The notes under the pieces were generated by a model. The model searched no databases. It saw only the letters and a list, made by a program, of their open reading frames with translations, and had not been told where the DNA came from. Of a DNA stretch of 11,816 nt, positions 41 to 11,816 are shown piece by piece; positions within the stretch are counted from its first letter, which is position 1, and each line of letters opens with the position of its first letter. The stretch is from contig JARRQT010000174.1 in assembly GCA_037381445.1 (NCBI GenBank), positions 1 through 11,816 on the forward strand, written 5' to 3'. The DNA comes from Calditrichia bacterium. Its GTDB lineage: Bacteria; Calditrichota; Calditrichia; RBG-13-44-9. The position numbers were made by a program, and so were the translations under genes.

Positions 41-2452
41 TCACTCATACCGCAAAGCCTCCTCCGGATTAGTAGTAGCTGATTTTATGGTTTGCCAACT
101 GATGGTTAGAAATGTAATTCCTGCGGTAATCGCCAAGGGAATTAAAAACATCCAGATATTCAACGACATCCTGTTCGCGTAGCTTTCCAGCCAATTGCTT
201 AACCCGATTATCAATAATGGAAGCACAATCACGAATGATATCAGGAGCAGGGTGATCAGCTCTTTTACCAGCAATTGAAAGATTTGAAAAACACTTGCCC
301 CTACCGCTTTTCGAATGCCGATTTCCTTGGTGCGTTGCGTCGCATTGAAGGCCGAGAGTCCGAATATTCCCAATGCGGTGATGAAGAGCGCCAGGGCGGC
401 AAAAAGGCTGAAGACCTCTCCCAGCAGGAAATCTGACTGGTATTGCTGATTGAAATATTCATCCAGGAAAAAATAATTGAAAGGATTTCCGGGGAAAAAC
501 TCATCATAGTGTTGGTGAATTATCTTAATTGTCCGACTCAAATTCCGGCTGTTCAGTTTAATTGCAAACTGGCCACGGACGTCCCGGCCGGTTGGAAGCA
601 GGCGGTAGAGATGCGGCTCAAATGCAGCCTTTAACGATTGCTGGTGATAGTCTTTCACAACACCGACGATTGTAAATATTTCTTCCCAATAATCGACTTT
701 CTGGCCAATTGCCTCCTGGCTGCTGGTAAAACCCATCCATTTTGCCGCAGTTTCGTTCATCAGCAGACTTCTTGAGTCTGTTGAAAATTTCCTGGAGAAA
801 TTCCTTCCGGCTACCAACCTAATATCAAAAACATTTACAAAATCATAATCAATCCCAACAATTTGATAATTCTTGCCTTTCGAAATATCTTCTCCTGCCT
901 TATGAATGCCGCCTGCATCCCAGTATATTTGCCGACCCGGCACTTCGGTGACATGGCAGGCATTTATAATGTTGGGATTAGCCAATATGGTTTCCTTGAA
1001 AAGATTAAACTTCTCACCATAAGCATCATCTCTCACCCGGGGGGCCTGAACGACAAGCGTCTGTTCGATATTGAAACCGAGATCCTGGTTTTTCATGAAT
1101 GACAACTGCTCATACATCGTGATGGTGCCTGCAATCAGGCCTAGAGCCATAACAAACTGGAATATTACCAACACTTTTCGGAGGTTAATTCCGCTTGCCG
1201 AATTTTTTAGTATTCCCTTGAGCACAACCGCCGGTTTGAAAGAGGATAAAACGATTACAGGGTACAATCCCGAAAAGAAAATGCCTGCCAGGAAAATTAT
1301 TGAGACTGCTATCCAGAACCAGCCGTGGGTTATAAAGCCGTAGTCGGTTGGGATGCCGGCGACTTCACTGAACAGAGGAAGAAAAAGCTCTACTAATCCC
1401 GTGGCAATCATTAATGCTGCCGAGTTAAGCAGTATTGTTTCGAGAAAAAACTGTGACATTAACTGTCGGCGGGAAGCGCCAACCACTTTGCGAAGTCCAA
1501 CTTCCTTTGCGCGGTCCAGCGAGCGGGCGGTGGAAAGGTTCACGTAATTCACCCACGCCATAACCATAATAAACAGTGCGATGATGAATAAGAAGTTAAC
1601 GGTGTCCCGGCTTCCATTCACCTCGAATTCCTGCATAAAATGAGAATTCAGGTGAATATCAGTGAGCGGCTGCATTTTTAAATCGATGGTCATTTTATAT
1701 TCTTTCAGCCAGGGACATTCCGCTTCCGCCAGCTTCTTTAATTTGCCTTCAAATTCCTTTGGGTCGGTTCCCGTTTTTACCATAAGATAGGTGTATGAGC
1801 CGGTATGTCCCCAGGCTTCGGTATACTCGGGGCCGTAAAGGGATACCAGGTTTTCCCAGGGCAATAAAATATCGAATTTAAGGTGTGAGTTTTGCGGAAT
1901 ATCTTTAAAGATGCCGGTGATCAGGTAGTCTGTTTTTTTATCCACGCTTATGGTTTTTCCGATAGGATTTTCATGCCCGAAGTATTTTTGCGCTGTGGCT
2001 TGAGAAACAAAGGCAGTGTTTGGCTCCCGGAGACCGGTGAGGGGATTGCCTTGGACAAATTTGAATTTAAGAATGTCAAGGAAATCCGGTTCTGCAAAAT
2101 ACATTCTTTCTTCCATGAAATTCATTTGTTGGTAAGATACGGCTGCCCGGTACCTGACTATCCTTCCAATTTTTTTCACCTCCGGATACTTATCGCGGAT
2201 GCGGGCTGCAGCCGGCGGACAGCAGGACGCAAATCGCACTGATTGTCCCTGTCCATCGGTGCGCTCGTAGCGCAGGCGGTAGATTCGTTCGCTGTTTTTA
2301 TGAAATCGGTCGTAGCTTTTTTCGTAAAGTACATAGTGCAAGATGAGGACACAGGCGGCCATACCGATAGCCAGTCCAAGGATGTTAATAGTAGTGAAAA
2401 TCCTGGTCTTAACAAAGTTTCTGAGCGCAATTTTCAGATAATTTTTAAACAC
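41..2452 (-). CDS. ABC transporter permease, duplicated MacB-PCD/FtsX type (803 aa)
   Basis: The ORF 41..2485 is trimmed to the GTG at 2452 (VFKNYLKIALRNF), which matches the paralog N-termini. Motifs include NILGLAIGMAAC, LQPLTDIHL-like, NYVNLSTARSLDRAKEVGLRKVVGA, LVIFQF, GVVKDYH, RTKEIGIRKAVGAS and the C-terminal NPEEALRYE. Confidence 0.93.
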   Translation of the reverse strand: MFKNYLKIALRNFVKTRIFTTINILGLAIGMAACVLILHYVLYEKSYDRFHKNSERIYRLRYERTDGQGQSVRFASCCPPAAARIRDKYPEVKKIGRIVRYRAAVSYQQMNFMEERMYFAEPDFLDILKFKFVQGNPLTGLREPNTAFVSQATAQKYFGHENPIGKTISVDKKTDYLITGIFKDIPQNSHLKFDILLPWENLVSLYGPEYTEAWGHTGSYTYLMVKTGTDPKEFEGKLKKLAEAECPWLKEYKMTIDLKMQPLTDIHLNSHFMQEFEVNGSRDTVNFLFIIALFIMVMAWVNYVNLSTARSLDRAKEVGLRKVVGASRRQLMSQFFLETILLNSAALMIATGLVELFLPLFSEVAGIPTDYGFITHGWFWIAVSIIFLAGIFFSGLYPVIVLSSFKPAVVLKGILKNSASGINLRKVLVIFQFVMALGLIAGTITMYEQLSFMKNQDLGFNIEQTLVVQAPRVRDDAYGEKFNLFKETILANPNIINACHVTEVPGRQIYWDAGGIHKAGEDISKGKNYQIVGIDYDFVNVFDIRLVAGRNFSRKFSTDSRSLLMNETAAKWMGFTSSQEAIGQKVDYWEEIFTIVGVVKDYHQQSLKAAFEPHLYRLLPTGRDVRGQFAIKLNSRNLSRTIKIIHQHYDEFFPGNPFNYFFLDEYFNQQYQSDFLLGEVFSLFAALALFITALGIFGLSAFNATQRTKEIGIRKAVGASVFQIFQLLVKELITLLLISFVIVLPLLIIGLSNWLESYANRMSLNIWMFLIPLAITAGITFLTISWQTIKSATTNPEEALRYE

Positions 2453-2463
2453 GATTTTTTCCA

Positions 2464-2491
2464 ATGACCAATAATGAATTACCAATTATCA
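2464..2491. repeat. Tandem heptamer arm, cassette C (3' arm on the mRNA): atgacca ataatga attacca attatca
   Basis: Four degenerate 7-mers read directly from the sequence; they are the reverse complement of the TGATCAT arm at 2891-2918. Confidence 0.8.
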
Positions 2492-2508
2492 TTTTCTGCA
2501 GCCTTAGT

Positions 2509-2850
2509 TCAGACTGTTTTGAGGATTGAGAATGAAATTTTCCAATTTTCCGTCTCCGCCAAGATGCCCTCATAAGTGTTCTTATTGATAGAATCTGTAT
2601 CATGGAGTAAAGAAATACCATATTTTGTTTCAAGGCATTCTTTATGTGCAATCGAAATCTTATTTGAGGAATCGGCTTTTGAAATTGCACCATTAACCTT
2701 GGAAATATTGGCCCCGATAGAAGTGCCGCTTCGAAGATGTTGTTTTGAAAGCACGAATTTCCTTTTTTCTTTTGTAAGGTATTGAAAGGCTTTCACTATT
2801 CCAATTGTGAGGTCATAGCCTTTCTGATAAACAACATTTGCCTTCTTCAT
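2509..2850 (-). CDS. Four helix bundle protein (TIGR02436/PF05635 family), 113 aa, possibly degenerating
   Basis: The motif FVLSKQxLRSGTSIGANI...K.SIA.KE..ET.Y..LL is typical of this family. Several usually conserved residues are substituted and there is no clear Shine-Dalgarno sequence. Confidence 0.85.
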   Translation of the reverse strand: MKKANVVYQKGYDLTIGIVKAFQYLTKEKRKFVLSKQHLRSGTSIGANISKVNGAISKADSSNKISIAHKECLETKYGISLLHDTDSINKNTYEGILAETENWKISFSILKTV

Positions 2851-2890
2851 TATGTTTCAACGTTATTATAAGATGGCTATCACCGGAATC

Positions 2891-2918
2891 TGATCATTGA
2901 TCACTGATAATTGTTCAT
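2891..2918. repeat. Tandem heptamer arm, cassette C (5' arm on the mRNA): tgatcat tgatcac tgataat tgttcat
   Basis: Four near-identical 7-mers; on the minus strand the arm begins 4 nt after the permease stop codon at 2923. Confidence 0.9.
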
Positions 2919-2922
2919 TTTC

Positions 2923-5236
2923 TTATTCGTACCGCAATGCCTCAACCGGATTGGTGAGCGAGGCTTTTATGGTTTGGTAGCTCACTGTGAACAGGGCGAT
3001 CAGCAAAGCAAGCATCGCAGCAAAGAAAAAAGTCAGGAAACTGATATTGATACGGTAAGCGAAATTATCCAGCCAGTCTTTCATGATCAGGTAAGCAACC
3101 GGCCAGGCAATGATGTTTGCCAGCACCACCCAGCGGGTGAATTCTTTGGAAAGCAGCAAGACGACATTCGATACAGAAGCGCCAAGCGTTTTCCGAATGC
3201 CAATCTCCTTGGTGCGCTGCTCGGTGACGAAAGATGCCAGTCCAAAAAGTCCCAGGCAGGCGATGAAAATGGCCAGCACCGCAAAGATGGACAGAATACG
3301 GGACGTCCGCTGCTCGGACTCATAAATTTTGGCAAAATCCTGGTCGAAGAACACATATTCGAACGCCTGGGCGCCGGCGAATTTATGCCAGGTTTTTTCC
3401 AGAAAGGCGAGGGTTTGTTTGATATCTCCCGGGGCAATGCGCACCGAGGTATAACGCCCGAAACCGTTGCGGCCGAACATTTTTATCACCAGCGGCCGTA
3501 TTTTCTGGTGCAGAGATTCAAAATTGAAATCCCGGGTCACTCCGATAATTTTATAGGTAATGGAGCGGTCTGCCGTAGCACCGATCTGAACGAGTTCTTT
3601 GCCTACCGGATTATCCAGTCCCAACACCTTGACAGCCGTCTGGTTGAGCACTACCGCCATGGAATCGGTCTTTCTCTCCGGAGAGAAAAATCGTCCTTCC
3701 GCCATTTTAATCTGGTAGGTCTGAGCAAAGTTGTAATCGCTGAACAAGGTCCATAGCAGGTGAGTCTCCTCGCCGGAAGTTCCGGCTACCTTATGAACGT
3801 TGCTGCCGAAATTCTTTCCAGGCAGGGTTTGAGAGTTGCTGACACCGATAACATTGGGATTCTGCATCAATTCATGTTTGAACGGTTCAATCTGGGCCCC
3901 GATATCATCGGTTTTCTCAATGACCACCACCTGGTCTTTGTTAAAACCCAGGTTTTTATTCTGAATATATTGCATCTGGTTGTAAACAATAAAAGTGCCG
4001 ATAATAAGAATAACCGAGATGGTGAACTGGAAAATCACTGCCTACCAGGACAGCCAGCCCAATGAGCGCGGGGAGAACATATATATTTGTAAAATAATGG
4101 ATTGTCACCTGTTTGTCCGCTATCTGGTTGAAGGCGGGAAGCAGCAGTTCCACGAAAATGAGGGCGAAGAAGACCGCGATAAAACTCATGAATATGGTCT
4201 CGGCCAGGAACTGCCGGACGAGCTGGGCGCGGTTTGAGCCCAAAGTTTTGCGGATTCCCACTTCCCTGGCGCGGTTGGCGGACCGGGCAGTGGCCAGATT
4301 CATAAAGTTGATGCAGGCAATCAGCAGAATTCCCAGGGCGATAACGGAAAATATTATGACATAGGTGGCATTTCCGTTTGGTTCGATCTCGAAATCCAAG
4401 TGGGAGCGCAGATGTATATCCGTGAGGGGTTGCAGGAAAAACCGGTATTGATTACCGCTGGCAATCATCTGATCCAAGGAAACGCCCAGGATCTGCTGCA
4501 CCTGGGGGCCCACATATTTTCTTACCATTTGGGGGAACTTCTCTTCAAGCTGTTCCGGGGGAAAGTCTTTTTGCAGCAGAATATAGGTATAGTAGCCATT
4601 ATTCAGCCATTGATCGCTGCGGCTATTCTCATAGGTAGAAAGTGAAGCCAGGAAATCAAAATGAAAATGGGAATTATGAGGTACATTCTTTACCACACCA
4701 GTAACCTGGTAATCCCGCCGGTTATCGGAATTGAGCACTTTCCCCATGGGGTCCTCATCCCCGAAATATTTTCGTGCCATGGATTGTGTGATAACAATAG
4801 TGTTTGGTTGGGTGAGAGCGGTTTTGGGATCTCCCTCCAGAAAAGGAATGGTAAATACATCAAATATATTGGAATCGGCGGAGAAAAATCTCTCTTCACT
4901 GAACACCCGATCCTTGTATCGCAGGACAGGAAAACCAAGATTAACAAAGCGGGTTGCCGCGATAACCTCCGGGTAGTCGTTGACAAGCGCCTTGGCCATA
5001 GGCGCGGAGGTGACGGCCTGGTTGAATTCATTGGTTCCCACAATGCCATGTATGCAAACCCGATAAATCTGATCAGCCTTTTCATTGTAGCGGTCATAGC
5101 TTAGTTCATCCGTAACATAGAGTAAAATCAGCAGGCAGGTGGCAATGCCGATGGCCAGTCCTGTGATATTAATAAACGAATAGCCCTTATGGCGGATAAG
5201 ATTTCGGAATGCAATTTTCAGATAATTCTTAAACAT
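2923..5236 (-). pseudogene. ABC transporter permease (duplicated MacB/FtsX type), split by a deletion/frameshift at ~4039
   Basis: It starts at ATG 5236 (MFKNYLKIAFRNL) with GGAG upstream. The frame runs to ...LAVLVG and then goes out of register to a stop at 3956. The C-terminal half (VIFQFTISVIL...NPVEALRYE) is in another frame, 2923..4038. The span of 2314 nt is not a multiple of 3, and the conserved LAGSYPA...LKG...RNVL segment is missing. Confidence 0.85.
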
Positions 5237-5249
5237 AATTTTCTCCGGC

Positions 5250-5284
5250 GTGAGCGCAAAGTGCATAGTGCATGGCGCACGGTT
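5250..5284. repeat. Tandem heptamer arm, cassette B (3' arm on the mRNA): gtgagcg caaagtg catagtg catggcg (cacggtt)
   Basis: A 7-nt periodicity with consensus CANAGYG, the approximate reverse complement of the CGCTNTG units at 5673-5700. Confidence 0.75.
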
Positions 5285-5287
5285 TGT

Positions 5288-5647
5288 TTAATCTCTGAGT
5301 GTTTTTCTAAAATTTGTAATTTTTCTGCATAAGTGATCTAATTTTTCAAGCAAAATATTCAAGTGATTTGCAGCAATTAAATTTATCCGATTAAGGATGA
5401 TTAAAATATTGGCATTTTCAAAAGTCGATTTTCGGGCAATATCCAAAAACTTTGAAAATTCTTTCTTTGAACTGGAACCAGATCCTTCCGCAATATTATT
5501 TGAAATACTCATGCCTGCACCGCGCAATTGTTCGGCAAAACGAAAAAGGTGCTTCTGCTCCAACTGATCGGCGATGTTAAAAAGTTCATCAGCGATTTCC
5601 ATAGCCATATTCCAAATTTCCAAATCCTGGAATCTGAATTTCACCAT
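5288..5647 (-). CDS. Four helix bundle protein (23S rRNA IVP-like, PF05635/TIGR02436), 119 aa
   Basis: Start at ATG 5647 with GGGAG upstream. Motifs: FRFQDLEIW, EQLRGAGMSISNNIAEGSG, EFSKFLDIARKS. Confidence 0.92.
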   Translation of the reverse strand: MVKFRFQDLEIWNMAMEIADELFNIADQLEQKHLFRFAEQLRGAGMSISNNIAEGSGSSSKKEFSKFLDIARKSTFENANILIILNRINLIAANHLNILLEKLDHLCRKITNFRKTLRD

Positions 5648-5672
5648 TTTTTCAATCTCCCGATGTTTTATT

Positions 5673-5700
5673 CGCTGTGCGCTTCCCGCTCTGCGCATTG
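5673..5700. repeat. Tandem heptamer arm, cassette B (5' arm on the mRNA): cgctgtg cgcttcc cgctctg cgcattg
   Basis: Four 7-mers each beginning with CGC; on the minus strand the arm begins 9 nt after the permease stop at 5710. Confidence 0.8.
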
Positions 5701-5709
5701 CCGCATGAA

Positions 5710-8166
5710 TTATTCATACCTCAGACTTTCCACCGGATTGGCTATGGCAGCCCGTATTGACTGATAGCTGACCGTTAATACGGCAATTGCCAGCGAAAGG
5801 ATACCGGAAAAAATAAAAATCCATATGGTCGGGTTTATACGATAGGCAAAATTCTGCAGCCACTGATTCATAAAATACCAGGCGGCTGGCCAGGCGATGA
5901 TATTTGCAACCAGCACCCAGCGGGTAAATTCTTTGGTCAGCAGAAGGACTATTTTGCTGACCGGTGCGCCCATCGCCTTGCGGATGCCGATTTCTTTGGT
6001 GCGTTTCTCGGTAGTAAAGGAAGCCAGTCCGAATAATCCCAGGCAGGCGATAAAGATGGCCAGCACCGAAAAGACAGTAAAGAGTTTTGCGGTAGTCTGT
6101 TCCGCTTTGTAAAGCAGGTCATAATCCTGATCGAAGAAAAAATATTCGAATGGTTTATAGGGGATATACTTGTCCCAGGTCTTCTTGATATAATCCACCG
6201 TTTCCGGTACCCGTTGCGGATGAATACGGACCGAAATATAGGTCCGGTCCAGATTCTGAAAGCCAAGCAGCAGCGGTTCAATTTTTTTATGCAATGAGGC
6301 ATAGTGAAAATCATTTACCACCCCAATAATATGCAGCATAAACCGGTCGTTTCCCGGGAATCCGATGCGCTTGCCCAGGTATGGTTTTTCGAATCCCAGA
6401 ATCCGGGCGGCCGTTTCATTGACCACCACGCCCATGCTGTCAGAGGCCATTTCGCGGGAATAGAACCGCCCTTCCTGAAATTCCAATTTATAGGTGTCCG
6501 CAAAATCAAAATCGGCCATGAAAAAATTCATGGGATGCTGTTCATCGGGAGAAGCGCCTTCGGCCAGGAAATTTGTGCTTTGCACATCTTTCCCCGGCAG
6601 GCTGGTGCTGCCCGCCACAGAAATTATCTGCGGATTTTGAAGCAGATCATGCTTGAAGGCATCAATCACGGTATTATTGGGTGATCTGCTGATCGGGGTG
6701 CCGTCTGGATTCTGGCCGATGGCCCAGCCACGTTTGATCACCACGATATTTTCTTTGTCGAATCCCAGGCGTTTTTCCTGAATATATTTTAACTGGCTGG
6801 AAACAATAAATGTGCAGACAAACAGCACAATGGAAATGGTGAATTGGATCACTACCAGAACATTTCTGAAAGCAACGCCCTGCTTTCCCTTGCTGAGGAT
6901 TCCCTTCAATACCGAAACAGGTTTAAAGGATGACAGGAAAAATGCGGGATAACTGCCGGCCAGGATTCCCACGATGAGTGAAATGACAAGAATCCCGGGA
7001 ATGATATACCAGTGGTTGAGGAAGCCACCTTGCAGATGCTTTCCCGCCAGGGTGTTGAAATAGGGAAGAACCAATTGCACGATGGCGACTGCAAAGATCA
7101 CCGCGATCAGTGTCATAATGATAGATTCAGCCAGGAATTGCTGGATAAGCTGTCTCCTGCGGGAACCCAGCACTTTTCTGATGCCTACCTCTTTTCCGCG
7201 CCCCGCAGAGCGGGAGGTGGAAAGGTTCATGAAATTGATGCAGGCGATAACCAAAATAAAAAATGCGATGAGCGAGAATATATAAATATAGGCGATGTCG
7301 CTGTTCGGCTCCAGTTCATTACTCAGGTGTGAATGCAGGTGGATGCCGGTCAGCGGCTGCAGGTAATACTCCAGTTTGCTGCCTGAGGCCTTGAATTCTT
7401 CCATGGACATTCCCATGCCGCGCTGAATGTGGGGCGCAACATATTTGCGGATGAAGTCCGGAAATTTTGCCTCCAACTGCTGCGGATCACTGTTTTCCCG
7501 GAGCATCACATAGGTATACATGAAATTATGCAGCCAGAATTCCTCCCAGTTCCATTCCCAGGATGAGAGGGGAGAGAGCATCCCGTAATGAAAGTGCGAA
7601 TTTTCCGGGGCATTCTTTGCAATGCCGGTCACCCGGTAGGGCGTCCCGTCTTCGTAGGTCACAATTTTGCCAATCGCTTCGGAGAGATTGTCAAAATATT
7701 TGGAGGCGGTTTCTTCAGTCATGACTACAGTATGGTCGTCCTTCAGGGCGGTCCGCGGATCGCCATAGAGCAGGGGAATGGAAAACACGTCAAAAAAGTT
7801 GGAATCGACCCACATGAAATGGGTTTCGTTAAAGACCCTGTCACCGTATCTCACCAGCATATTCGGGGTATGCTGCAGACGGGTGGCATGCTCTACCTCG
7901 GGATACTCCTCGGCAAGGGTGCGCGCCATCAGGGAGGAGGTCTGCGGGATGTTCAGCTCCTGATTCCCAACCACGCCCCTGACTGCCACCCTGTAGATGC
8001 GGTCGTGATTATTATAATGCCTGTCATAACTCAGCTCATCCAGCACAAACAGCAGAATCAGGAAACAGCAGGCCAGACCAATCGCCAGCCCGGCGATATT
8101 AATAAAGGTATATCCTTTTTGCCGAAGCAAATTCCGAAACGTGATTTTGAGAAAATTTTGAAACAT
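5710..8166 (-). CDS. ABC transporter permease, duplicated MacB-PCD/FtsX type (818 aa)
   Basis: Start at ATG 8166 (MFQNFLKITFRNL) with SD GAGGAG at 8173-8178. Motifs: INFMNLSTSRSAGRGKEVGIRKVLG, LAGSYPAFFLSSFKPVSVLKG, RTKEIGIRKAMGA, NPVESLRYE. Confidence 0.95.
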   Translation of the reverse strand: MFQNFLKITFRNLLRQKGYTFINIAGLAIGLACCFLILLFVLDELSYDRHYNNHDRIYRVAVRGVVGNQELNIPQTSSLMARTLAEEYPEVEHATRLQHTPNMLVRYGDRVFNETHFMWVDSNFFDVFSIPLLYGDPRTALKDDHTVVMTEETASKYFDNLSEAIGKIVTYEDGTPYRVTGIAKNAPENSHFHYGMLSPLSSWEWNWEEFWLHNFMYTYVMLRENSDPQQLEAKFPDFIRKYVAPHIQRGMGMSMEEFKASGSKLEYYLQPLTGIHLHSHLSNELEPNSDIAYIYIFSLIAFFILVIACINFMNLSTSRSAGRGKEVGIRKVLGSRRRQLIQQFLAESIIMTLIAVIFAVAIVQLVLPYFNTLAGKHLQGGFLNHWYIIPGILVISLIVGILAGSYPAFFLSSFKPVSVLKGILSKGKQGVAFRNVLVVIQFTISIVLFVCTFIVSSQLKYIQEKRLGFDKENIVVIKRGWAIGQNPDGTPISRSPNNTVIDAFKHDLLQNPQIISVAGSTSLPGKDVQSTNFLAEGASPDEQHPMNFFMADFDFADTYKLEFQEGRFYSREMASDSMGVVVNETAARILGFEKPYLGKRIGFPGNDRFMLHIIGVVNDFHYASLHKKIEPLLLGFQNLDRTYISVRIHPQRVPETVDYIKKTWDKYIPYKPFEYFFFDQDYDLLYKAEQTTAKLFTVFSVLAIFIACLGLFGLASFTTEKRTKEIGIRKAMGAPVSKIVLLLTKEFTRWVLVANIIAWPAAWYFMNQWLQNFAYRINPTIWIFIFSGILSLAIAVLTVSYQSIRAAIANPVESLRYE

Positions 8167-8172
8167 AGTTTT

Positions 8173-8178
8173 CTCCTC
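8173..8178 (-). promoter_or_regulatory. Shine-Dalgarno GAGGAG of the permease starting at 8166
   Basis: GAGGAG lies 6 nt upstream of the ATG. Confidence 0.75.
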
Positions 8179-8213
8179 ATCAGGAAAGCCGGGTGCAGAA
8201 CGCGAAATGTTAG

Positions 8214-8244
8214 CGGAGACCGGAGACAGAAGACCGGAGACCGG
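8214..8244. repeat. Tandem heptamer arm, cassette A (3' arm on the mRNA): cggagac cggagac agaagac cggagac cgg
   Basis: Three exact CGGAGAC units plus one variant; the unit is the exact reverse complement of GTCTCCG at 8656-8662. Confidence 0.93.
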
Positions 8245-8253
8245 CATTTGCGT

Positions 8254-8613
8254 TTAAAACTTTTCTTTCCTTGTTTTAATTAAATTATAAAGCATTGCCG
8301 AAATCTTTTTTGTTCGCTCGATGAATTCCTGTGCTTTCATTATTTCGATTAAAGCAAATTCATTTGACAAATAAAGTTGCGTCCGCAATTCTGAACAGGA
8401 ACCTTTTGAGACAAATAGATATTGAATAAATTCCTTATTGGAATTTCTGTCGAAGCCTTCTGCAATATTAGATGGAATTGAAACCGCCGAGCGTTGGATA
8501 TGGTCTCGAAAGGTATAATCTTTGACAGAGAGGAATGCATGATAAATATCTACTGCAAGTCTCATACTCTCTTTCCAAACCTCCAAGTCTTCAAACTTTG
8601 TTATTTTTTTCAA
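8254..8613 (-). CDS. Four helix bundle protein (23S rRNA IVP-like, PF05635/TIGR02436), 119 aa
   Basis: The ORF 8254..8850 is trimmed to TTG 8613, which has AAGGAG 6 nt upstream. Motifs: KFEDLEVWKES, IQRSAVSIPSNIAEGFDR, EFIQYLFVSKGSCSELRTQLY. Confidence 0.93.
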   Translation of the reverse strand: MKKITKFEDLEVWKESMRLAVDIYHAFLSVKDYTFRDHIQRSAVSIPSNIAEGFDRNSNKEFIQYLFVSKGSCSELRTQLYLSNEFALIEIMKAQEFIERTKKISAMLYNLIKTRKEKF

Positions 8614-8655
8614 CCTGGACTCCTTTTGTAGACTGGTTTCTATAATTTTATTTTC

Positions 8656-8683
8656 GTCTCCGGTCTCCCTTCTCCGGTTTCCC
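8656..8683. repeat. Tandem heptamer arm, cassette A (5' arm on the mRNA): gtctccg gtctccc ttctccg gtttccc
   Basis: Four 7-mers; on the minus strand the arm begins 13 nt after the permease stop at 8697. Confidence 0.9.
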
Positions 8684-8696
8684 TTCATACCTGCAT

Positions 8697-11114
8697 TTAT
8701 TCGTATCTGAGTGCTCTTGCCGGATTGATGACCGCCGCCCGCCAGGACTGGCTCAGGACGGTGAGCACCGCCACAAGCAGGGCCAATATGCTGGCCAGCA
8801 GGAAGGGCAGGGGATCCAGGGGAATCCGGTAGGCGAAACTGTTCAGCCATTTCGATGCCGCAAACCAGGCCAGCGGCCAGGCGAAGATATTGGCCAGCAG
8901 TACCCAGCGGATGAAATCGATCACCAGCAGGCGGATGATCAGGCCGGTGGATGCACCCAATACTTTCCGCACGCCGATCTCTTTAATCCGTATGGCGGTG
9001 CTGTGGCTGGAGAGACTGAACAGCCCCAGGCAGGCGATAAAAATTGCCAGAATGGAGAAGATGTTTACAATCTTGCCGGTGTTGATATCGCGCCGATACA
9101 GATTGTTGAATTCATCATCCAGGAACGTATAGCTGAAGGGATGATCGGGATAGAGTTCCTGCCATTTCTGACCGGCGTAGTTCAGTGCTTCCGGAATGCG
9201 CCCCGCCTGAATCCGGGCGGCCAGCAGATTTCCCGGAAAGCGGGCCAGCGGGAAAATTACCACCGGCTCGATAGGCTGGTGCAGCCCCAGGAAATGAAAA
9301 TCCTTCACCACGCCGATCACCCGGGCGCCGGTGGAATCCGAAGTGCCAAAATAAATCTTTTTGCTCAGGGGATCCTTCCAACCCAGTTGTTTAACGGCCG
9401 TCTGGTTGATGATAACCACGCCGCTGGTGTCGCTGCCCATTTCCCGGCTGAAATTTCTCCCTTCGGCCATTTTCATACCCAGGGTGGGAATAGTCTCCGG
9501 GCTGATAAAAAAGTTGCTCCAGATCCAGATATCCCTTTCCGAAGCGCCTTCGGGACGGACGCCGGTCCTTCCGAAAGTGCGGCCAGGGACATTACTGGAC
9601 GCGGCAACCGAAACAAAACTTCCGGCTTTGGCGAGTTCCTTCCGGAATGTTTCCAACTTTTCACCCATCTTCCGGTCGGTCATATCGAACACCACTACCT
9701 GCTCCCGGTTGTAGCCCAAATCCTTGTGCTGGACAAAATACATCTGCTTCTGAACGACCACGGTGAGGCCGATCAGCGCGATGGAAAGGGTGAACTGGAA
9801 AACCACCAGCGCCTTGCGCATGATGATGCCGGTCTGGCCGGAAGCGAAACTTCCCTTTAACACAGAAACCGGCTTGAAATTGGAGAGGACGATGGCAGGG
9901 TAAAAACCTGCCAGTAATCCAACCAGAATGAGAGCGCTGAAAAGAAAAATGACGATGAGGCCGTTTTGAAACAGATTAAGAGACATGGACGCGCCGACCA
10001 GATGGTTGAGCAGGGGCAAGGAAAACTCCGCCAGCGGGAAGGAGAGAAGCAGGGCCAAAAATGTCAGCAGAAGAGATTCCCCCATAAACTGGTAAATAAG
10101 CTGCCGGCGGGACGAACCCACCACCTTCCGCATCCCCACTTCTTTCGCGCGCTGGGTACTGCGGGCCGTGGAAAGGTTCATATAATTGACGATAGCAATG
10201 ATCAGAATCAAAAGAGCAATGGCCGCAAATATATAAATATTTTTGATATCGCCTTTGTTGACAGTCGGATCGAAAATGACATCGGTGGAGTGAAGATGAA
10301 CATCCCGCAGCGGCTGCAGGGTTATGCTGAAATTCTCCTCCACACCGTGATCCCGGCAGAGTTTGGTGAATTTCCCATCCAATCCTTCGGGTAAAGCGCC
10401 CTGTTTTAATAAAACATAAGTCGGCATCGCAACCATATCCCAATTCTCCAGCCAGATGGGCTGCGTAGTATTGGGCGGTTGATTGGTTTTGGCCACGGAA
10501 GCCTGCGTGGAGAGCGAGAGCAACCCGTCAAAATCCAGATGACTGTTATCGGGCAGATCCTGCATCACACCGGTCACCTGCGCGTCATATCCATTGCCGG
10601 TGCGAATGGTTTTTCCCATCGCTTCTTCGCTGCCGAAAATCTGCCGGGCAAGGGTCCTGGTCAAAACAATGCTGAACGGTTCGGTCAGGGCTTTTTGCCG
10701 GTCTCCCTCCAACAATCTGAAATCGAACAGGTCAAAAAAATTCCCATCCGCAGATCGCAGTTTTCTGGCATAGATTCCCTGCTGATCCCCATATTTCAGA
10801 AGCGATTTGCCGCCGCCGGACAGTCTGACGGATGCTTCAACTTCCGGGAAAGTCTCCTGCAGCGCCGGTCCCAGCGGCGGCATGGTGATCCCCACACGCT
10901 GATTATGCGTTCCCAGCGCCTTGTCAATGGTCAATACACGATAGATGCGATCCGCCTTTCCGTGTTCTTTTTCGAAGGAAAGCTCACGCTGAATAAAAAG
11001 AAGAATCAGCATGCAGGCAGCCATTCCGATGGCAAGACCCAGGATGTTGATCGATGAAAAAATTTTATGGCGAAACAGATTACGAACCGCGATCTTAAGA
11101 TAATTGGTGATCAT
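8697..11114 (-). CDS. ABC transporter permease, duplicated MacB-PCD/FtsX type (805 aa)
   Basis: Start at ATG 11114 (MITNYLKIAVRNL) with SD GAGGAGG upstream. Motifs: NYMNLSTARSTQRAKEVGMRKVVG, LAGFYPA, LVVFQF, GVVKDFHF, KEIGVRKVLGAS, NPARALRYE. Confidence 0.95.
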   Translation of the reverse strand: MITNYLKIAVRNLFRHKIFSSINILGLAIGMAACMLILLFIQRELSFEKEHGKADRIYRVLTIDKALGTHNQRVGITMPPLGPALQETFPEVEASVRLSGGGKSLLKYGDQQGIYARKLRSADGNFFDLFDFRLLEGDRQKALTEPFSIVLTRTLARQIFGSEEAMGKTIRTGNGYDAQVTGVMQDLPDNSHLDFDGLLSLSTQASVAKTNQPPNTTQPIWLENWDMVAMPTYVLLKQGALPEGLDGKFTKLCRDHGVEENFSITLQPLRDVHLHSTDVIFDPTVNKGDIKNIYIFAAIALLILIIAIVNYMNLSTARSTQRAKEVGMRKVVGSSRRQLIYQFMGESLLLTFLALLLSFPLAEFSLPLLNHLVGASMSLNLFQNGLIVIFLFSALILVGLLAGFYPAIVLSNFKPVSVLKGSFASGQTGIIMRKALVVFQFTLSIALIGLTVVVQKQMYFVQHKDLGYNREQVVVFDMTDRKMGEKLETFRKELAKAGSFVSVAASSNVPGRTFGRTGVRPEGASERDIWIWSNFFISPETIPTLGMKMAEGRNFSREMGSDTSGVVIINQTAVKQLGWKDPLSKKIYFGTSDSTGARVIGVVKDFHFLGLHQPIEPVVIFPLARFPGNLLAARIQAGRIPEALNYAGQKWQELYPDHPFSYTFLDDEFNNLYRRDINTGKIVNIFSILAIFIACLGLFSLSSHSTAIRIKEIGVRKVLGASTGLIIRLLVIDFIRWVLLANIFAWPLAWFAASKWLNSFAYRIPLDPLPFLLASILALLVAVLTVLSQSWRAAVINPARALRYE

Positions 11115-11121
11115 AAAATTG

Positions 11122-11128
11122 CCTCCTC
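11122..11128 (-). promoter_or_regulatory. Shine-Dalgarno GAGGAGG of the permease starting at 11114
   Basis: A strong SD 7 nt upstream of the ATG. Confidence 0.8.
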
Positions 11129-11176
11129 TATATTTGAAAAGCGCCCTGCGTGCTATGCAGAGATATTGCATGCATG

Positions 11177-11816
11177 TTATTCATATCTCAGGCTCTCCAC
11201 CGGATTTGCCAGTGCCGCCTTAATGGCCTGTGCACTTACTGTCAAAATTGCAATCAATAGCGCCAACCCGCCCGCCAGGGCAAATACCCACCAGCCGATG
11301 TCGATCCGATACGCAAAATTCTGCAGCCAGCGGTTCATCACATACCAGGCCACCGGCCAGGCAATGAGATTGGCATACAAAACATAGCGGGTGAATTCCT
11401 TTGCCAGCAACATAACCGTTCCTGGGACTGAAGCACCCAGGACTTTTCGTATCCCGATTTCTTTGGTCCGCTGTTCAGCCGTAAAGGAGGCCAATCCAAA
11501 CAAGCCCAGGCAGGCGATAAATAATGCCAGAAAACTGAAGGAATTTATGACTTTTCCCACCTGCTGTTCCGCAAGATACATCTTATTTATCTGGTCATCC
11601 AGAAAATTAAATTCAAAGGGGAAACCGGGAGCAATCCTGCTCCAGTCGCTTTCGATCGATTTGACCGAAGCGCTCAGGTTCCCGGGAGCCAATTTTATCA
11701 GGAGGTATTGAATTTCCCTGGGATCAAAATAAATCGCCAACGGCCCTATTTTTGAGTGAAGGGAACTGAAGTTGAAATCTTTGATGACCCCGATTATGCG
11801 GTAATTAAAGATTTTT
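11177..11816 (-). CDS. ABC transporter permease (MacB/FtsX type), C-terminal part; 5' end lies beyond the window
   Basis: The frame stays open to the window edge (…YRIIGVIKDFNFSSLHSKIGPLAIYF…). Motifs: LALFIACLGLFGLASFTAEQRTKEIGIRKVLGAS, NPVESLRYE. Confidence 0.92.
   Translation of the reverse strand, partial: KIFNYRIIGVIKDFNFSSLHSKIGPLAIYFDPREIQYLLIKLAPGNLSASVKSIESDWSRIAPGFPFEFNFLDDQINKMYLAEQQVGKVINSFSFLALFIACLGLFGLASFTAEQRTKEIGIRKVLGASVPGTVMLLAKEFTRYVLYANLIAWPVAWYVMNRWLQNFAYRIDIGWWVFALAGGLALLIAILTVSAQAIKAALANPVESLRYE

What the first reader, a model, noticed from the sequence alone, without database searches (positions are those of the whole stretch)
2464..8683. Recurrent cassette: four-helix-bundle gene enclosed by inverted arms of four tandem heptamers, resembling an rRNA intervening sequence inside an mRNA
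Seen: three cassettes of similar size, at 2464-2918 (455 bp), 5250-5700 (451 bp) and 8214-8683 (470 bp). Each reads [4 x 7-mer]-[four-helix-bundle gene]-[reverse-complement 4 x 7-mer], is co-oriented with the operon and starts 4, 9 or 13 nt after a permease stop codon. The architecture is shared although the repeat sequences are not. Established: this protein family (PF05635/TIGR02436) was first found in Leptospira 23S rRNA intervening sequences, which are stem-enclosed inserts removed by RNase III, and its function is unknown. Inference: the arms pair on the transcript, loop out the small ORF, and make the unit either an RNA-processing/regulatory module or a compact transposase-free mobile element. 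I do not know of a description of these flanks as a defined system.
Basis: partly seen in the sequence, partly recalled or inferred. Interest (0 to 1): 0.9.

Follow-up and report, generated by a model that had tools for sequence, protein, structure and literature searches.

The report
Heptamer-armed four-helix-bundle gene cassettes
Three small genes of the "rRNA intervening-sequence protein" family sit between the transporter genes of one operon, each boxed in by mirror-image runs of its own 7-base word; the same package recurs across bacterial phyla and differs between related strains at one gene junction, and its word stays conserved along with the protein, so the protein likely binds the word, which would give this unknown family a testable function.

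Summary
On the minus strand, three PF05635/TIGR02436 genes lie between tandem ADOP-type permease genes. Each is flanked by inverted arms of about four 7-mers that start 4-13 nt after a permease stop codon. Cassette 2 has the weakest arms.

The layout is general:
- All 7 family genes in this genome have it (one is cut by a contig end).
- In a sample from many phyla, 87 of 112 loci have it, against 6 of 341 shifted controls.
- Cassettes are co-oriented with the upstream gene in 66 of 76 cases and abut its stop codon (median 1 nt).

The cassettes come and go. The hemB-hemL junction is 12-26 nt in four relatives. The permease B-C junction holds a different cassette in a related strain and a decayed remnant in an 85% ortholog.

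The repeat word tracks the protein clade. It is 77% conserved where silent sites are saturated (30%). Gene-less arrays elsewhere in this genome carry the resident cassettes' words.

Arm mismatches show no G·U bias, so RNA pairing is predicted but has no direct support.

The closest known element is the ORF-bearing 23S rRNA intervening sequence of Coxiella, which has a 28-bp RNase III stem and noted heptamers. I file this as a new variant of that kind. Earlier notes of this scan describe the same layout on other DNA in at least 235 genomes.

The parts
8654..8686 (-). cassette 3, 5' arm: about 4 units of GGAGACC type. It starts 13 nt after the stop of permease B (8697-8699).
8254..8613 (-). cassette 3 gene: 119-aa four-helix-bundle protein with a TTG start and AAAGGAG 7 nt upstream
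8212..8246 (-). cassette 3, 3' arm: about 4.4 units of GGTCTCC. It ends about 45 nt before the permease C start at 8166.
5666..5702 (-). cassette 2, 5' arm: degenerate GCGCAnA-type 7-mers, the weakest of the three
5288..5647 (-). cassette 2 gene: 119-aa PF05635 protein
5246..5284 (-). cassette 2, 3' arm. It ends 10 nt before the permease D start at 5236.
2891..2922 (-). cassette 1, 5' arm: CAATGAT/CAGTGAT-type 7-mers. It starts 4 nt after the stop of permease D (2923-2925).
2509..2850 (-). cassette 1 gene: 113-aa PF05635 protein
2460..2494 (-). cassette 1, 3' arm. It ends about 10 nt before the permease E start (GTG at 2452).
41..11815 (-). host operon: five tandem duplicated MacB/FtsX (ADOP-like) permease genes. 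A is 11177-11815 (partial), B is 8697-11171, C is 5710-8166, D is 2923-5236 and E is 41-2452. The A-B junction (5 nt) has no cassette.

Best explanation
These are three independent copies of an exchangeable, IVS-type gene cassette lodged in the spacers of a permease operon. Its arms are inverted arrays of a lineage-specific 7-base word that the encoded basic four-helix-bundle protein likely binds, and the arms are predicted to pair in the operon transcript into a stem that RNase III would cut.

Shown here:
- the anatomy of the cassettes;
- its recurrence across phyla;
- placement right after the stop codon of a co-oriented gene;
- differences in presence, type and state of decay at fixed junctions;
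- conservation of the word together with the protein clade;
- gene-less arrays carrying the resident cassettes' words.

Inferred:
(a) The word is read by the cassette's own protein. Solved relatives are crystallised with five chains and are reported as pentameric rings, and Avd is reported to bind RNA.
(b) The gene has no promoter of its own and is expressed by read-through.
(c) The arms form double-stranded RNA that RNase III processes. This would release the small mRNA and leave the flanking cistrons usable, so the insertion would cost the host little.
(d) How a cassette reaches a new junction is unknown. No transposase, reverse transcriptase or target duplication goes with it.
For: Anatomy.

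Generality: all 7 PF05635 genes of this genome have 7- or 8-mer arms. Arm score is at least 14 in 87 of 112 loci against 6 of 341 position-shifted controls. In 18 further relatives of the cassette-1 protein, 17 have such arms. Period is 7 in 120 and 8 in 42 of 172 arms.

Placement: the upstream ORF is on the same strand in 66 of 76 cases and the downstream ORF in 61 of 77. The arm starts a median of 1 nt after the upstream stop, and 48 of 66 lie within -16 to +19 nt.

Turnover: hemB-hemL spacers are 12-26 nt in 4 relatives against 549 nt with the cassette here. Contigs of another study carry a cassette-1-like gene at the B-C junction, with flanks 96-98% identical. L134 carries a decayed remnant there. 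The three window proteins are only 20-28% identical to the cassette-3 protein, so they are not local duplicates.

Sequence constraint on the word: in 303 pairs with 60-75% protein identity, fourfold-degenerate sites and the 30 nt before the start codon are 30% identical. The consensus unit is 77% identical, against a null of 50%. Unit distance is at most 1 in 43% of pairs at 60% protein identity or more, and in about 0% below 45%.

Cognate arrays: 21 of 40 non-cassette arrays lie within 1 mismatch of a resident cassette word, against a mean of 4.3 and a maximum of 12 for 300 draws of foreign words.

Protein: pLDDT 97; TM 0.89 to 2gsc and 0.78 to Avd 4dwl. 2gsc and 2rld each have five chains. 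Median pI is 9.0, and 90 of 107 proteins are above 8.

Precedent: RNase III cuts the 28-bp stem of the Coxiella IVS, which carries tandem GACAGAT units (PMC4990558, passages). The Avd pentamer contacts RNA (bioRxiv 10.1101/2023.10.23.563531, passages). RNase III is present in this genome. The arms close the MFE fold of all three cassettes.
Against: There is no excess of sense-strand G·U over A·C among arm mismatches: 107 against 124 in 72 cassettes, with 21 cassettes showing more G·U and 32 fewer.

Complementarity sits at the level of the unit, not the position. Matches per 7-mer are 5.66 against 5.49 after permuting unit order. Unit-permuted arms pair as well for cassettes 1 and 2. The whole-cassette fold energies of cassettes 1 and 2 are unremarkable (z -1.45 and -0.72).

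Arms hold a median of 4.4 units with a mode of 4, not 5, so there is no simple one-unit-per-subunit match to a pentamer.

Word-protein co-conservation is also what shared descent plus any co-travelling reader would give. The pairs are not independent. No binding was tested.

25 of 112 loci show no clear arms. No catalytic domain, no target-site duplication and no movement event was seen directly.
Confidence: 0.45

Rival explanations
1. Host-serving RNA module. The stem-enclosed unit exists to process or regulate the polycistronic permease transcript, for example by uncoupling cistrons or setting mRNA stability. The small protein would be a host RNA chaperone, and the module is not selfish or mobile.
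For: Strong co-orientation and placement in operon spacers. The arms close the MFE fold. RNase III cleavage is shown for the Coxiella IVS stem. No promoter-like or terminator-like site was found inside the cassettes on the coding strand.
Against: Orthologous junctions work without the cassette, with 12-26 nt spacers and a 5-nt A-B junction here. Different cassette lineages are interchangeable at one junction. Host genes next to cassettes are unrelated: permeases and hemB/hemL in this genome and cas loci in PMC3936711 (passage). There is no G·U signature of RNA-level selection. Gene-less and decayed copies exist.
Confidence: 0.15
2. The arms are ends recognised by a recombinase or transposase encoded elsewhere, for example a Y1/HUH enzyme acting on hairpin DNA as in REP/RAYT or IS200/IS605. 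The four-helix-bundle gene would be cargo or an accessory factor.
For: The symmetric mismatch pattern fits a DNA-level feature. The genome holds 7 Y1_Tnp matches. Two of them (C71, C245) are themselves next to inverted pairs of a tandem 8-mer. Many gene-less arrays exist. A HicAB-like pair lies between direct arrays of the cassette-1 word.
Against: The word follows the four-helix-bundle clade across phyla, not the host. That requires a reader that travels with the cassette. The Y1 genes here are mostly flanked by ordinary REP-like palindromes. No target duplication was found.
Confidence: 0.15
3. The protein is an autoregulator or defence-linked nucleic-acid binder, and the arrays are its operators. 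Differences in presence between strains would come only from homologous recombination and slippage, not from any dedicated mobility.
For: The proteins are basic. The word is conserved with the protein. Array length varies, and heptamer number varies between Coxiella strains. The family was reported inside cas loci (PMC3936711, passage).
Against: Three unrelated lineages occupy equivalent junctions of one operon. The same layout occurs at unrelated junctions in many phyla. No PADLOC family matched. Cognate arrays lie scattered at many other intergenic sites.
Confidence: 0.1

Closest known systems
ORF-bearing intervening sequence (IVS) of 23S rRNA: Coxiella burnetii helix 45 (PMC4990558); Leptospira is named in the same paper
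   Same: Same protein family in the loop. Element size is similar, 428-444 nt there and 451-470 nt here. Terminal inverted repeats form a stem of about 28 bp. Tandem heptamers occur in the 5' arm, and their number varies between strains. The element was viewed as selfish. RNase III is the known processing enzyme there (passages read).
   Different: This cassette sits between protein-coding genes of an operon, not in an rRNA helix. Both arms are whole arrays of a clade-specific word. The Shine-Dalgarno sequence lies inside the loop for cassette 3, whereas the Coxiella paper says cleavage removes it. Cognate gene-less arrays are dispersed in the genome. Processing is untested here.
Avd, accessory protein of diversity-generating retroelements (PDB 4dwl, 8ub* RNP)
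   Same: Same fold, TM 0.78. Avd is reported as a basic pentameric barrel that contacts RNA encoded next to its own gene.
   Different: No reverse transcriptase match was found in this 92%-complete genome. There is no template/variable repeat pair. Sequence identity is 10-12%.
REP elements and their RAYT (Y1) transposases
   Same: By analogy only (recalled, not from a call): a single gene flanked by inverted copies of a short repeat whose gene-less copies are dispersed, with repeat type matched to gene lineage.
   Different: The gene here is a roughly 120-aa helical bundle with no known catalytic motif. The repeats are tandem 7/8-mers rather than single palindromes.
Short tandemly repeated repetitive (STRR) heptamers of cyanobacteria
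   Same: Tandem 7-mers in intergenic, transcribed regions (recalled, not from a call).
   Different: My searches found no paper linking them to this protein family. I did not test cyanobacterial genomes.

Membership tests
PF05635 / TIGR02436 four-helix-bundle (23S rRNA IVS) protein | HMM score above the curated cut-off | tested here: met
   Pfam 76.2, 96.9 and 109 bits against 33.8. TIGR02436 76.9, 92.5 and 105.1 bits against 24.
PF05635 / TIGR02436 four-helix-bundle (23S rRNA IVS) protein | Four-helix-bundle fold like Xcc0516 and BT_0352 | tested here: met
   Cassette 3 protein: pLDDT 97.3 with four helices. TM 0.89 to 2gsc and 0.80 to 2rld. Cassettes 1 and 2 were not folded.
PF05635 / TIGR02436 four-helix-bundle (23S rRNA IVS) protein | Motif GxxRxxxSxxxNxxE (named in PMC3936711, passage) | tested here: met
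   In alignment A2 of 71 sequences, S45 and N49 are invariant, and R41 and E52 are at least 90% conserved.
PF05635 / TIGR02436 four-helix-bundle (23S rRNA IVS) protein | Homopentameric ring | not tested
   2gsc and 2rld each hold five chains. The complex tool takes at most four copies, so no job was sent.
23S rRNA intervening sequence (S23p type) | Inserted in a 23S (or 16S) rRNA helix | tested here: not met
   All three cassettes lie between permease ORFs. The other own-genome copies also lie between protein-coding genes.
23S rRNA intervening sequence (S23p type) | Terminal inverted repeats that form a stem enclosing the ORF | tested here: met
   The arms pair in the MFE fold of all three. 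The duplex is significant for cassettes 3 and 1 and marginal for cassette 2. This is a prediction only.
23S rRNA intervening sequence (S23p type) | Excision by RNase III | not testable with these tools
   No RNA run holds the locus. An RNase III gene is present.
DGR (Avd with reverse transcriptase) | Neighbouring reverse transcriptase and template/variable repeats | tested here: not met
   No RVT_1 match in the genome, which is 91.85% complete.
TIR transposon / MITE | Target-site duplication | tested here: not met
   The longest shared word in the outer flanks averages 3.83 against 3.85 in mismatched pairs, over 75 cassettes. Arm borders are fuzzy, so short duplications could be missed.
TIR transposon / MITE | Transposase in the autonomous copy | tested here: not met
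   The only ORF in the cassette is the roughly 115-aa helical bundle.
Integron gene cassette | attC at the 3' end and an integron integrase with attI | not tested
   The arms flank both sides of the gene, unlike attC. No search for an integron integrase was run.

The most novel reading that the evidence does not exclude
The PF05635 four-helix-bundle ring is a sequence-specific reader of tandem 7/8-base words. Together with its inverted word arrays it forms a new class of mobile element without a transposase, analogous in logic to REP/RAYT. This element colonises transcribed spacers and rRNA loops in many phyla, sheds gene-less arrays, and is the origin of much of the unexplained tandem-heptamer DNA in bacterial genomes.
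Probability: 0.3. Interest if true: 0.9.

Novelty: new variant of a known kind. Interest (0 to 1): 0.7.

Why it matters
PF05635/TIGR02436 is a very large family with solved structures and no known function. It occurs in multiple copies in most genomes searched here: 28 of 31 relatives, with up to 14 copies. Tying it to a conserved, lineage-specific 7-base word gives a direct bench test of cognate against non-cognate binding.

It would also re-read earlier context-based associations, such as its reported presence inside cas loci (PMC3936711), as cassette insertions. It would link the rRNA intervening sequences to a much wider element that lives in operon spacers. It may also account for many tandem-heptamer arrays and for assembly breaks in metagenome bins.

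Tried and rejected
1. RNA evidence. No RNA holder is listed for the locus, so nothing can be said on expression or processing.

2. A second laying on 8695-8900 was meant to read the arm of the swapped cassette. It gave no loose ends, so the arm type of that cassette stays unknown.

3. Only 17 of 86 5' arms do so, and 26 of 86 have no stop at all. Both classes exceed shuffles, as any periodic array would. This is not a general property, and cassette 3's word has no stop.

4. One unit per subunit of a pentamer. Arms have a median of 4.4 units and a mode of 4. Five of the 123 arrays counted there were runs of masked N and should be ignored.

5. Target-site duplication: none detected.

6. Sense-strand G·U excess: none.

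7. Anti-phage defence families (PADLOC): no match for the three proteins.

8. Sigma-70 promoter and terminator scan: nothing on the coding strand inside the cassettes except a weak terminator-like hit within the 3' arm of cassette 3. The scan does not cover other promoter types.

9. The alignment of the seven paralogs was too divergent to seed a locus search, so I used the cassette 3 protein alone.

10. The first literature search was too broad to be useful. Ralph and McClelland 1993 is not held.

11. The first arm scoring relied on predicted start codons and missed arms at TTG-start genes. It was replaced by hit-anchored flanks. Even there, cassette 2 of the window scores as a miss.
Full report
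**What is in the window.** All long ORFs are on the minus strand. They are five tandem duplicated MacB/FtsX permease genes (PF12704 plus PF02687). The best NCBIfam match is ADOP, below its cut-off. Three of the four junctions between them each hold a small PF05635/TIGR02436 gene: 8254-8613, 5288-5647 and 2509-2850. The fourth junction (A-B, 11171/11177) is 5 nt long and empty.

- Each small gene is flanked by inverted arms, and TRF sees period 7 in three arms. All six arms peak at lag 7.
- The arm duplex is strong for cassette 3 (-48.8 kcal/mol, 0 of 500 shuffles as good). It is moderate for cassette 1 (6 of 500) and marginal for cassette 2 (18 of 500).
- The arms begin 4, 9 and 13 nt after the upstream stop codons.
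- They end 10, 10 and about 45 nt before the true starts of the next permease (2452, 5236, 8166), leaving that gene's ribosome-binding site.
- The three proteins are 20-28% identical to the cassette 3 protein, so they are separate lineages rather than local duplicates.

**Is it more than chance, and is it general?** The genome has 7 PF05635 matches. All show tandem 7-mer arms, 8-mer at C75 and a 14-mer super-unit at C348, in inverted orientation. At C280 a contig end cuts the upstream side.

I then took 80 loci encoding relatives of the cassette 3 protein from named genomes of many phyla. I added 29 loci with PF05635 matches in 30 relatives of this genome.

- Of 116 loci, 112 had both flanks.
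- The best local complementarity between the flank upstream of the gene and the flank downstream reached 14 or more in 87 of 112. Position-shifted controls in the same loci reached it in 6 of 341. At 20 or more the figures are 52 of 112 against 2 of 341.
- Among the 86 cassettes kept, the best period is 7 in 120 of 172 arms, 8 in 42, 9 in 7, 6 in 2 and 11 in 1.
- By a stricter array detector, arms hold a median of 4.4 units with a mode of 4. Five of the 123 arrays counted were masked N runs.
- A second sample used 18 of the 29 new loci found with the cassette 1 protein in 86 genomes of the phylum. I left out 11 weaker or partial matches. It gave 17 of 18 with arms.

**Where the cassettes sit.** In the 86 cassettes, the nearest ORF of at least 120 aa upstream is on the same strand in 66 of 76 cases, and the nearest downstream ORF in 61 of 77. 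The 5' arm starts a median of 1 nt after the stop of the co-oriented upstream gene, and 48 of 66 lie within -16 to +19 nt.

This fits insertion into the short spacer between a stop codon and the next ribosome-binding site. It need not mean that stop codons are targeted. No sigma-70-like promoter or terminator lies inside the window's cassettes on the coding strand, so read-through expression is the simplest inference.

**They come and go.**

- The own-genome cassette on C56 lies between hemB and hemL in a 549-nt spacer. I read 14 loci: this genome and 13 relatives with a HemL 68-77% identical. One partial match and two 37% paralogs were left out. The hemB end could not be placed in one of the 14 (L124, where the contig starts 370 nt upstream).
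- The hemB-hemL spacer is 12, 16, 22 and 26 nt in four relatives and 56-208 nt in seven. In one it is 721 nt, with CAGATTT-type arms and no intact gene. Two others carry short heptamer arrays.
- For the window's B-C junction, Logan contigs of a different study (X2 and X3, one sample) join 8176 to a cassette-1-like gene piece and then to 8695. That piece covers 2562-2688 with 27 differences in 127, and 2765-2793. The flanks differ from the window at 44 of 1086 and 4 of 206 positions.
- Other contigs in X2 and X4 carry the cassette 3 type.
- A metagenome contig whose permease is 85% identical to B (L134) has arm remnants of the GGAGACC type at this junction. It also has the last 14 or so codons of the cassette 3-type gene and extra arrays of another word.
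- One junction therefore shows three states: intact, swapped and decayed.

**The word is conserved with the protein.** Loci whose protein is at least 56% identical to cassette 3's come from several phyla. They mostly carry GGAGACC-like words. Those at 50-58% carry GGT-rich 8-mers, and those at 39-49% (Geomonas, Nitrospirota and others) carry GTTCAAn. The cassette 1 clade behaves the same way: CAATnAn at 56-59%, GAATTAC/AATTAAC at 45-49% and GAATGnA at 33-43%.

- Among 72 cassettes, the unit differs by at most 1 base in 43% of pairs at 60% protein identity or more. The figure is 12% at 45-60%, and about 0% below 45%.
- In 303 pairs at 60-75% protein identity, fourfold-degenerate sites and the 30 nt before the start codon are both 30% identical, that is, saturated. 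The consensus unit is 77% identical, against a null of 50%.
- Within the unit, 3-4 positions are kept and the rest vary: GGA(G/A)A(C/A)C and GTTC(A/T)AN.
- These pairs are not independent. Even so, a non-coding word that outlasts silent-site saturation is under sequence-specific constraint, not only a need to pair.

**Gene-less arrays.** The genome has 26 period-7 and 17 period-8 arrays, against 1 and 5 in a locally shuffled genome. Nearly all are intergenic.

- Of the 40 arrays outside the cassettes, 21 lie within 1 mismatch of a resident cassette's word. Sets of seven foreign cassette words gave a mean of 4.3 and a maximum of 12 in 300 draws.
- Some form empty hairpins, for example C173 377-504 and C209 2649-2805. 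Others stand alone or beside arrays of another word.

**RNA or DNA?** The arms close the minimum-energy fold of each cassette transcript, and the genome encodes RNase III. In the homologous Coxiella IVS, a 28-bp terminal stem is cut by RNase III in vitro with ends mapped by RACE. Two or three tandem GACAGAT units precede the ORF there (PMC4990558, passages read).

Against selection on RNA pairing:
- In 72 cassettes with ungapped arms, 2104 of 2617 columns are Watson-Crick. The transition-type mismatches split 107 as sense-strand G·U and 124 as A·C (binomial p 0.29).
- Permuting the order of units changes little: 5.66 against 5.49 matches per 7-mer. That comparison is biased towards the observed order.
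- Unit-permuted arms pair as well for cassettes 1 and 2.

So the complementarity follows from two inverted arrays of one word. A stem is still predicted, but I have no evidence that it is the selected feature.

**The protein.** The cassette 3 protein folds with confidence as four helices (pLDDT 97.3). It matches Xcc0516 (TM 0.89), BT_0352 (0.80) and Avd (0.78), including Avd chains in the DGR ribonucleoprotein. Both solved homologues found by sequence have five chains.

The proteins are basic, with a median pI of 9.0. The published motif GxxRxxxSxxxNxxE is kept. Avd is described as a positively charged pentameric barrel similar to S23 ribosomal proteins, with an Avd-binding RNA element (bioRxiv 10.1101/2023.10.23.563531, passages). 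PF05635 is stated to resemble Avd (PMC10053308, passage). No reverse transcriptase was found in this genome, so this is not a DGR.

**Literature.** Searches for the family names together with heptamer or heptanucleotide terms returned only the Coxiella paper as linking the two. One paper reported 18 family genes inside cas loci and read them as CRISPR-associated (PMC3936711, passage). A preprint found the domain in rRNA insertions of CPR bacteria (10.1101/2024.02.27.582315, passage). I saw no supplements. Subscription papers, including Ralph and McClelland 1993 and Lin et al. 2006, were not readable.

**Earlier notes of this scan.** A word search returned 242 notes in at least 235 genomes with the same layout on other DNA. 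They are AI notes and I did not use them as support. I tested the cross-phylum claim, the inserted/replaced/lost claim and the stop-codon idea myself. One note calls this genome Calditrichota, which I did not test.

**Verdict.** The best reading is an exchangeable IVS-type cassette whose arms are arrays of a word read by a factor that travels with it, most simply its own protein. RNase III processing of the paired arms is predicted by homology but unsupported here. How the cassette moves is open.

Noticed in passing
window 4038/4039: Contigs of three runs (X1, X2, X3) carry 110 extra letters between these two positions. The split of permease D into two overlapping ORFs (2923-4038 and 3956-5266) is therefore probably an assembly deletion rather than a real frameshift.
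   Followed up: partly
own genome contig C318:4800-7300: A 2.5-kb stretch without long ORFs is packed with arrays of at least five different words, including those of cassettes 1, 3, C75 and C280. It also has recurring GC-rich hairpins and a HicAB-like gene pair that lies between two direct, not inverted, arrays of the cassette-1 word.
   Followed up: no
own genome contig C195:37-190 and 3151-3300: Two copies of a composite gene-less element. Each has a CAATGAT-type array, a spacer of about 55 nt with a small hairpin, and then an array of the cassette-2 type word. Arms of different word families can therefore be combined.
   Followed up: no
own genome C71:13604-13948 and C245:1746-2087: Two Y1 transposase (PF01797) genes sit next to inverted pairs of a tandem 8-mer (ACCTTATT x2). 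Two other copies (C259, C315) have ordinary REP-like palindromes nearby.
   Followed up: no
L119, L123, L124 (hemB-hemL junctions of relatives): The same housekeeping junction has been hit repeatedly. One relative has a 721-nt insert with CAGATTT arms and no intact gene. Another has a 110-nt insert with two unlike arrays. A third has an AATCYGC array just before hemL, which also stands before hemL in this genome.
   Followed up: partly
L153 (G025:C37): A cassette-1-type cassette lies between two convergent permease genes, with an arm abutting the stop codon on each side.
   Followed up: no
relatives' genomes, table: Many PF05635 matches lie only 60-300 nt from a contig end. This suggests that the repeated arms break short-read assemblies and that copy numbers in bins are underestimates.
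   Followed up: no
window 41-11815: Five ADOP-like duplicated permease paralogs lie in one row, with no ATPase gene in the window.
   Followed up: no
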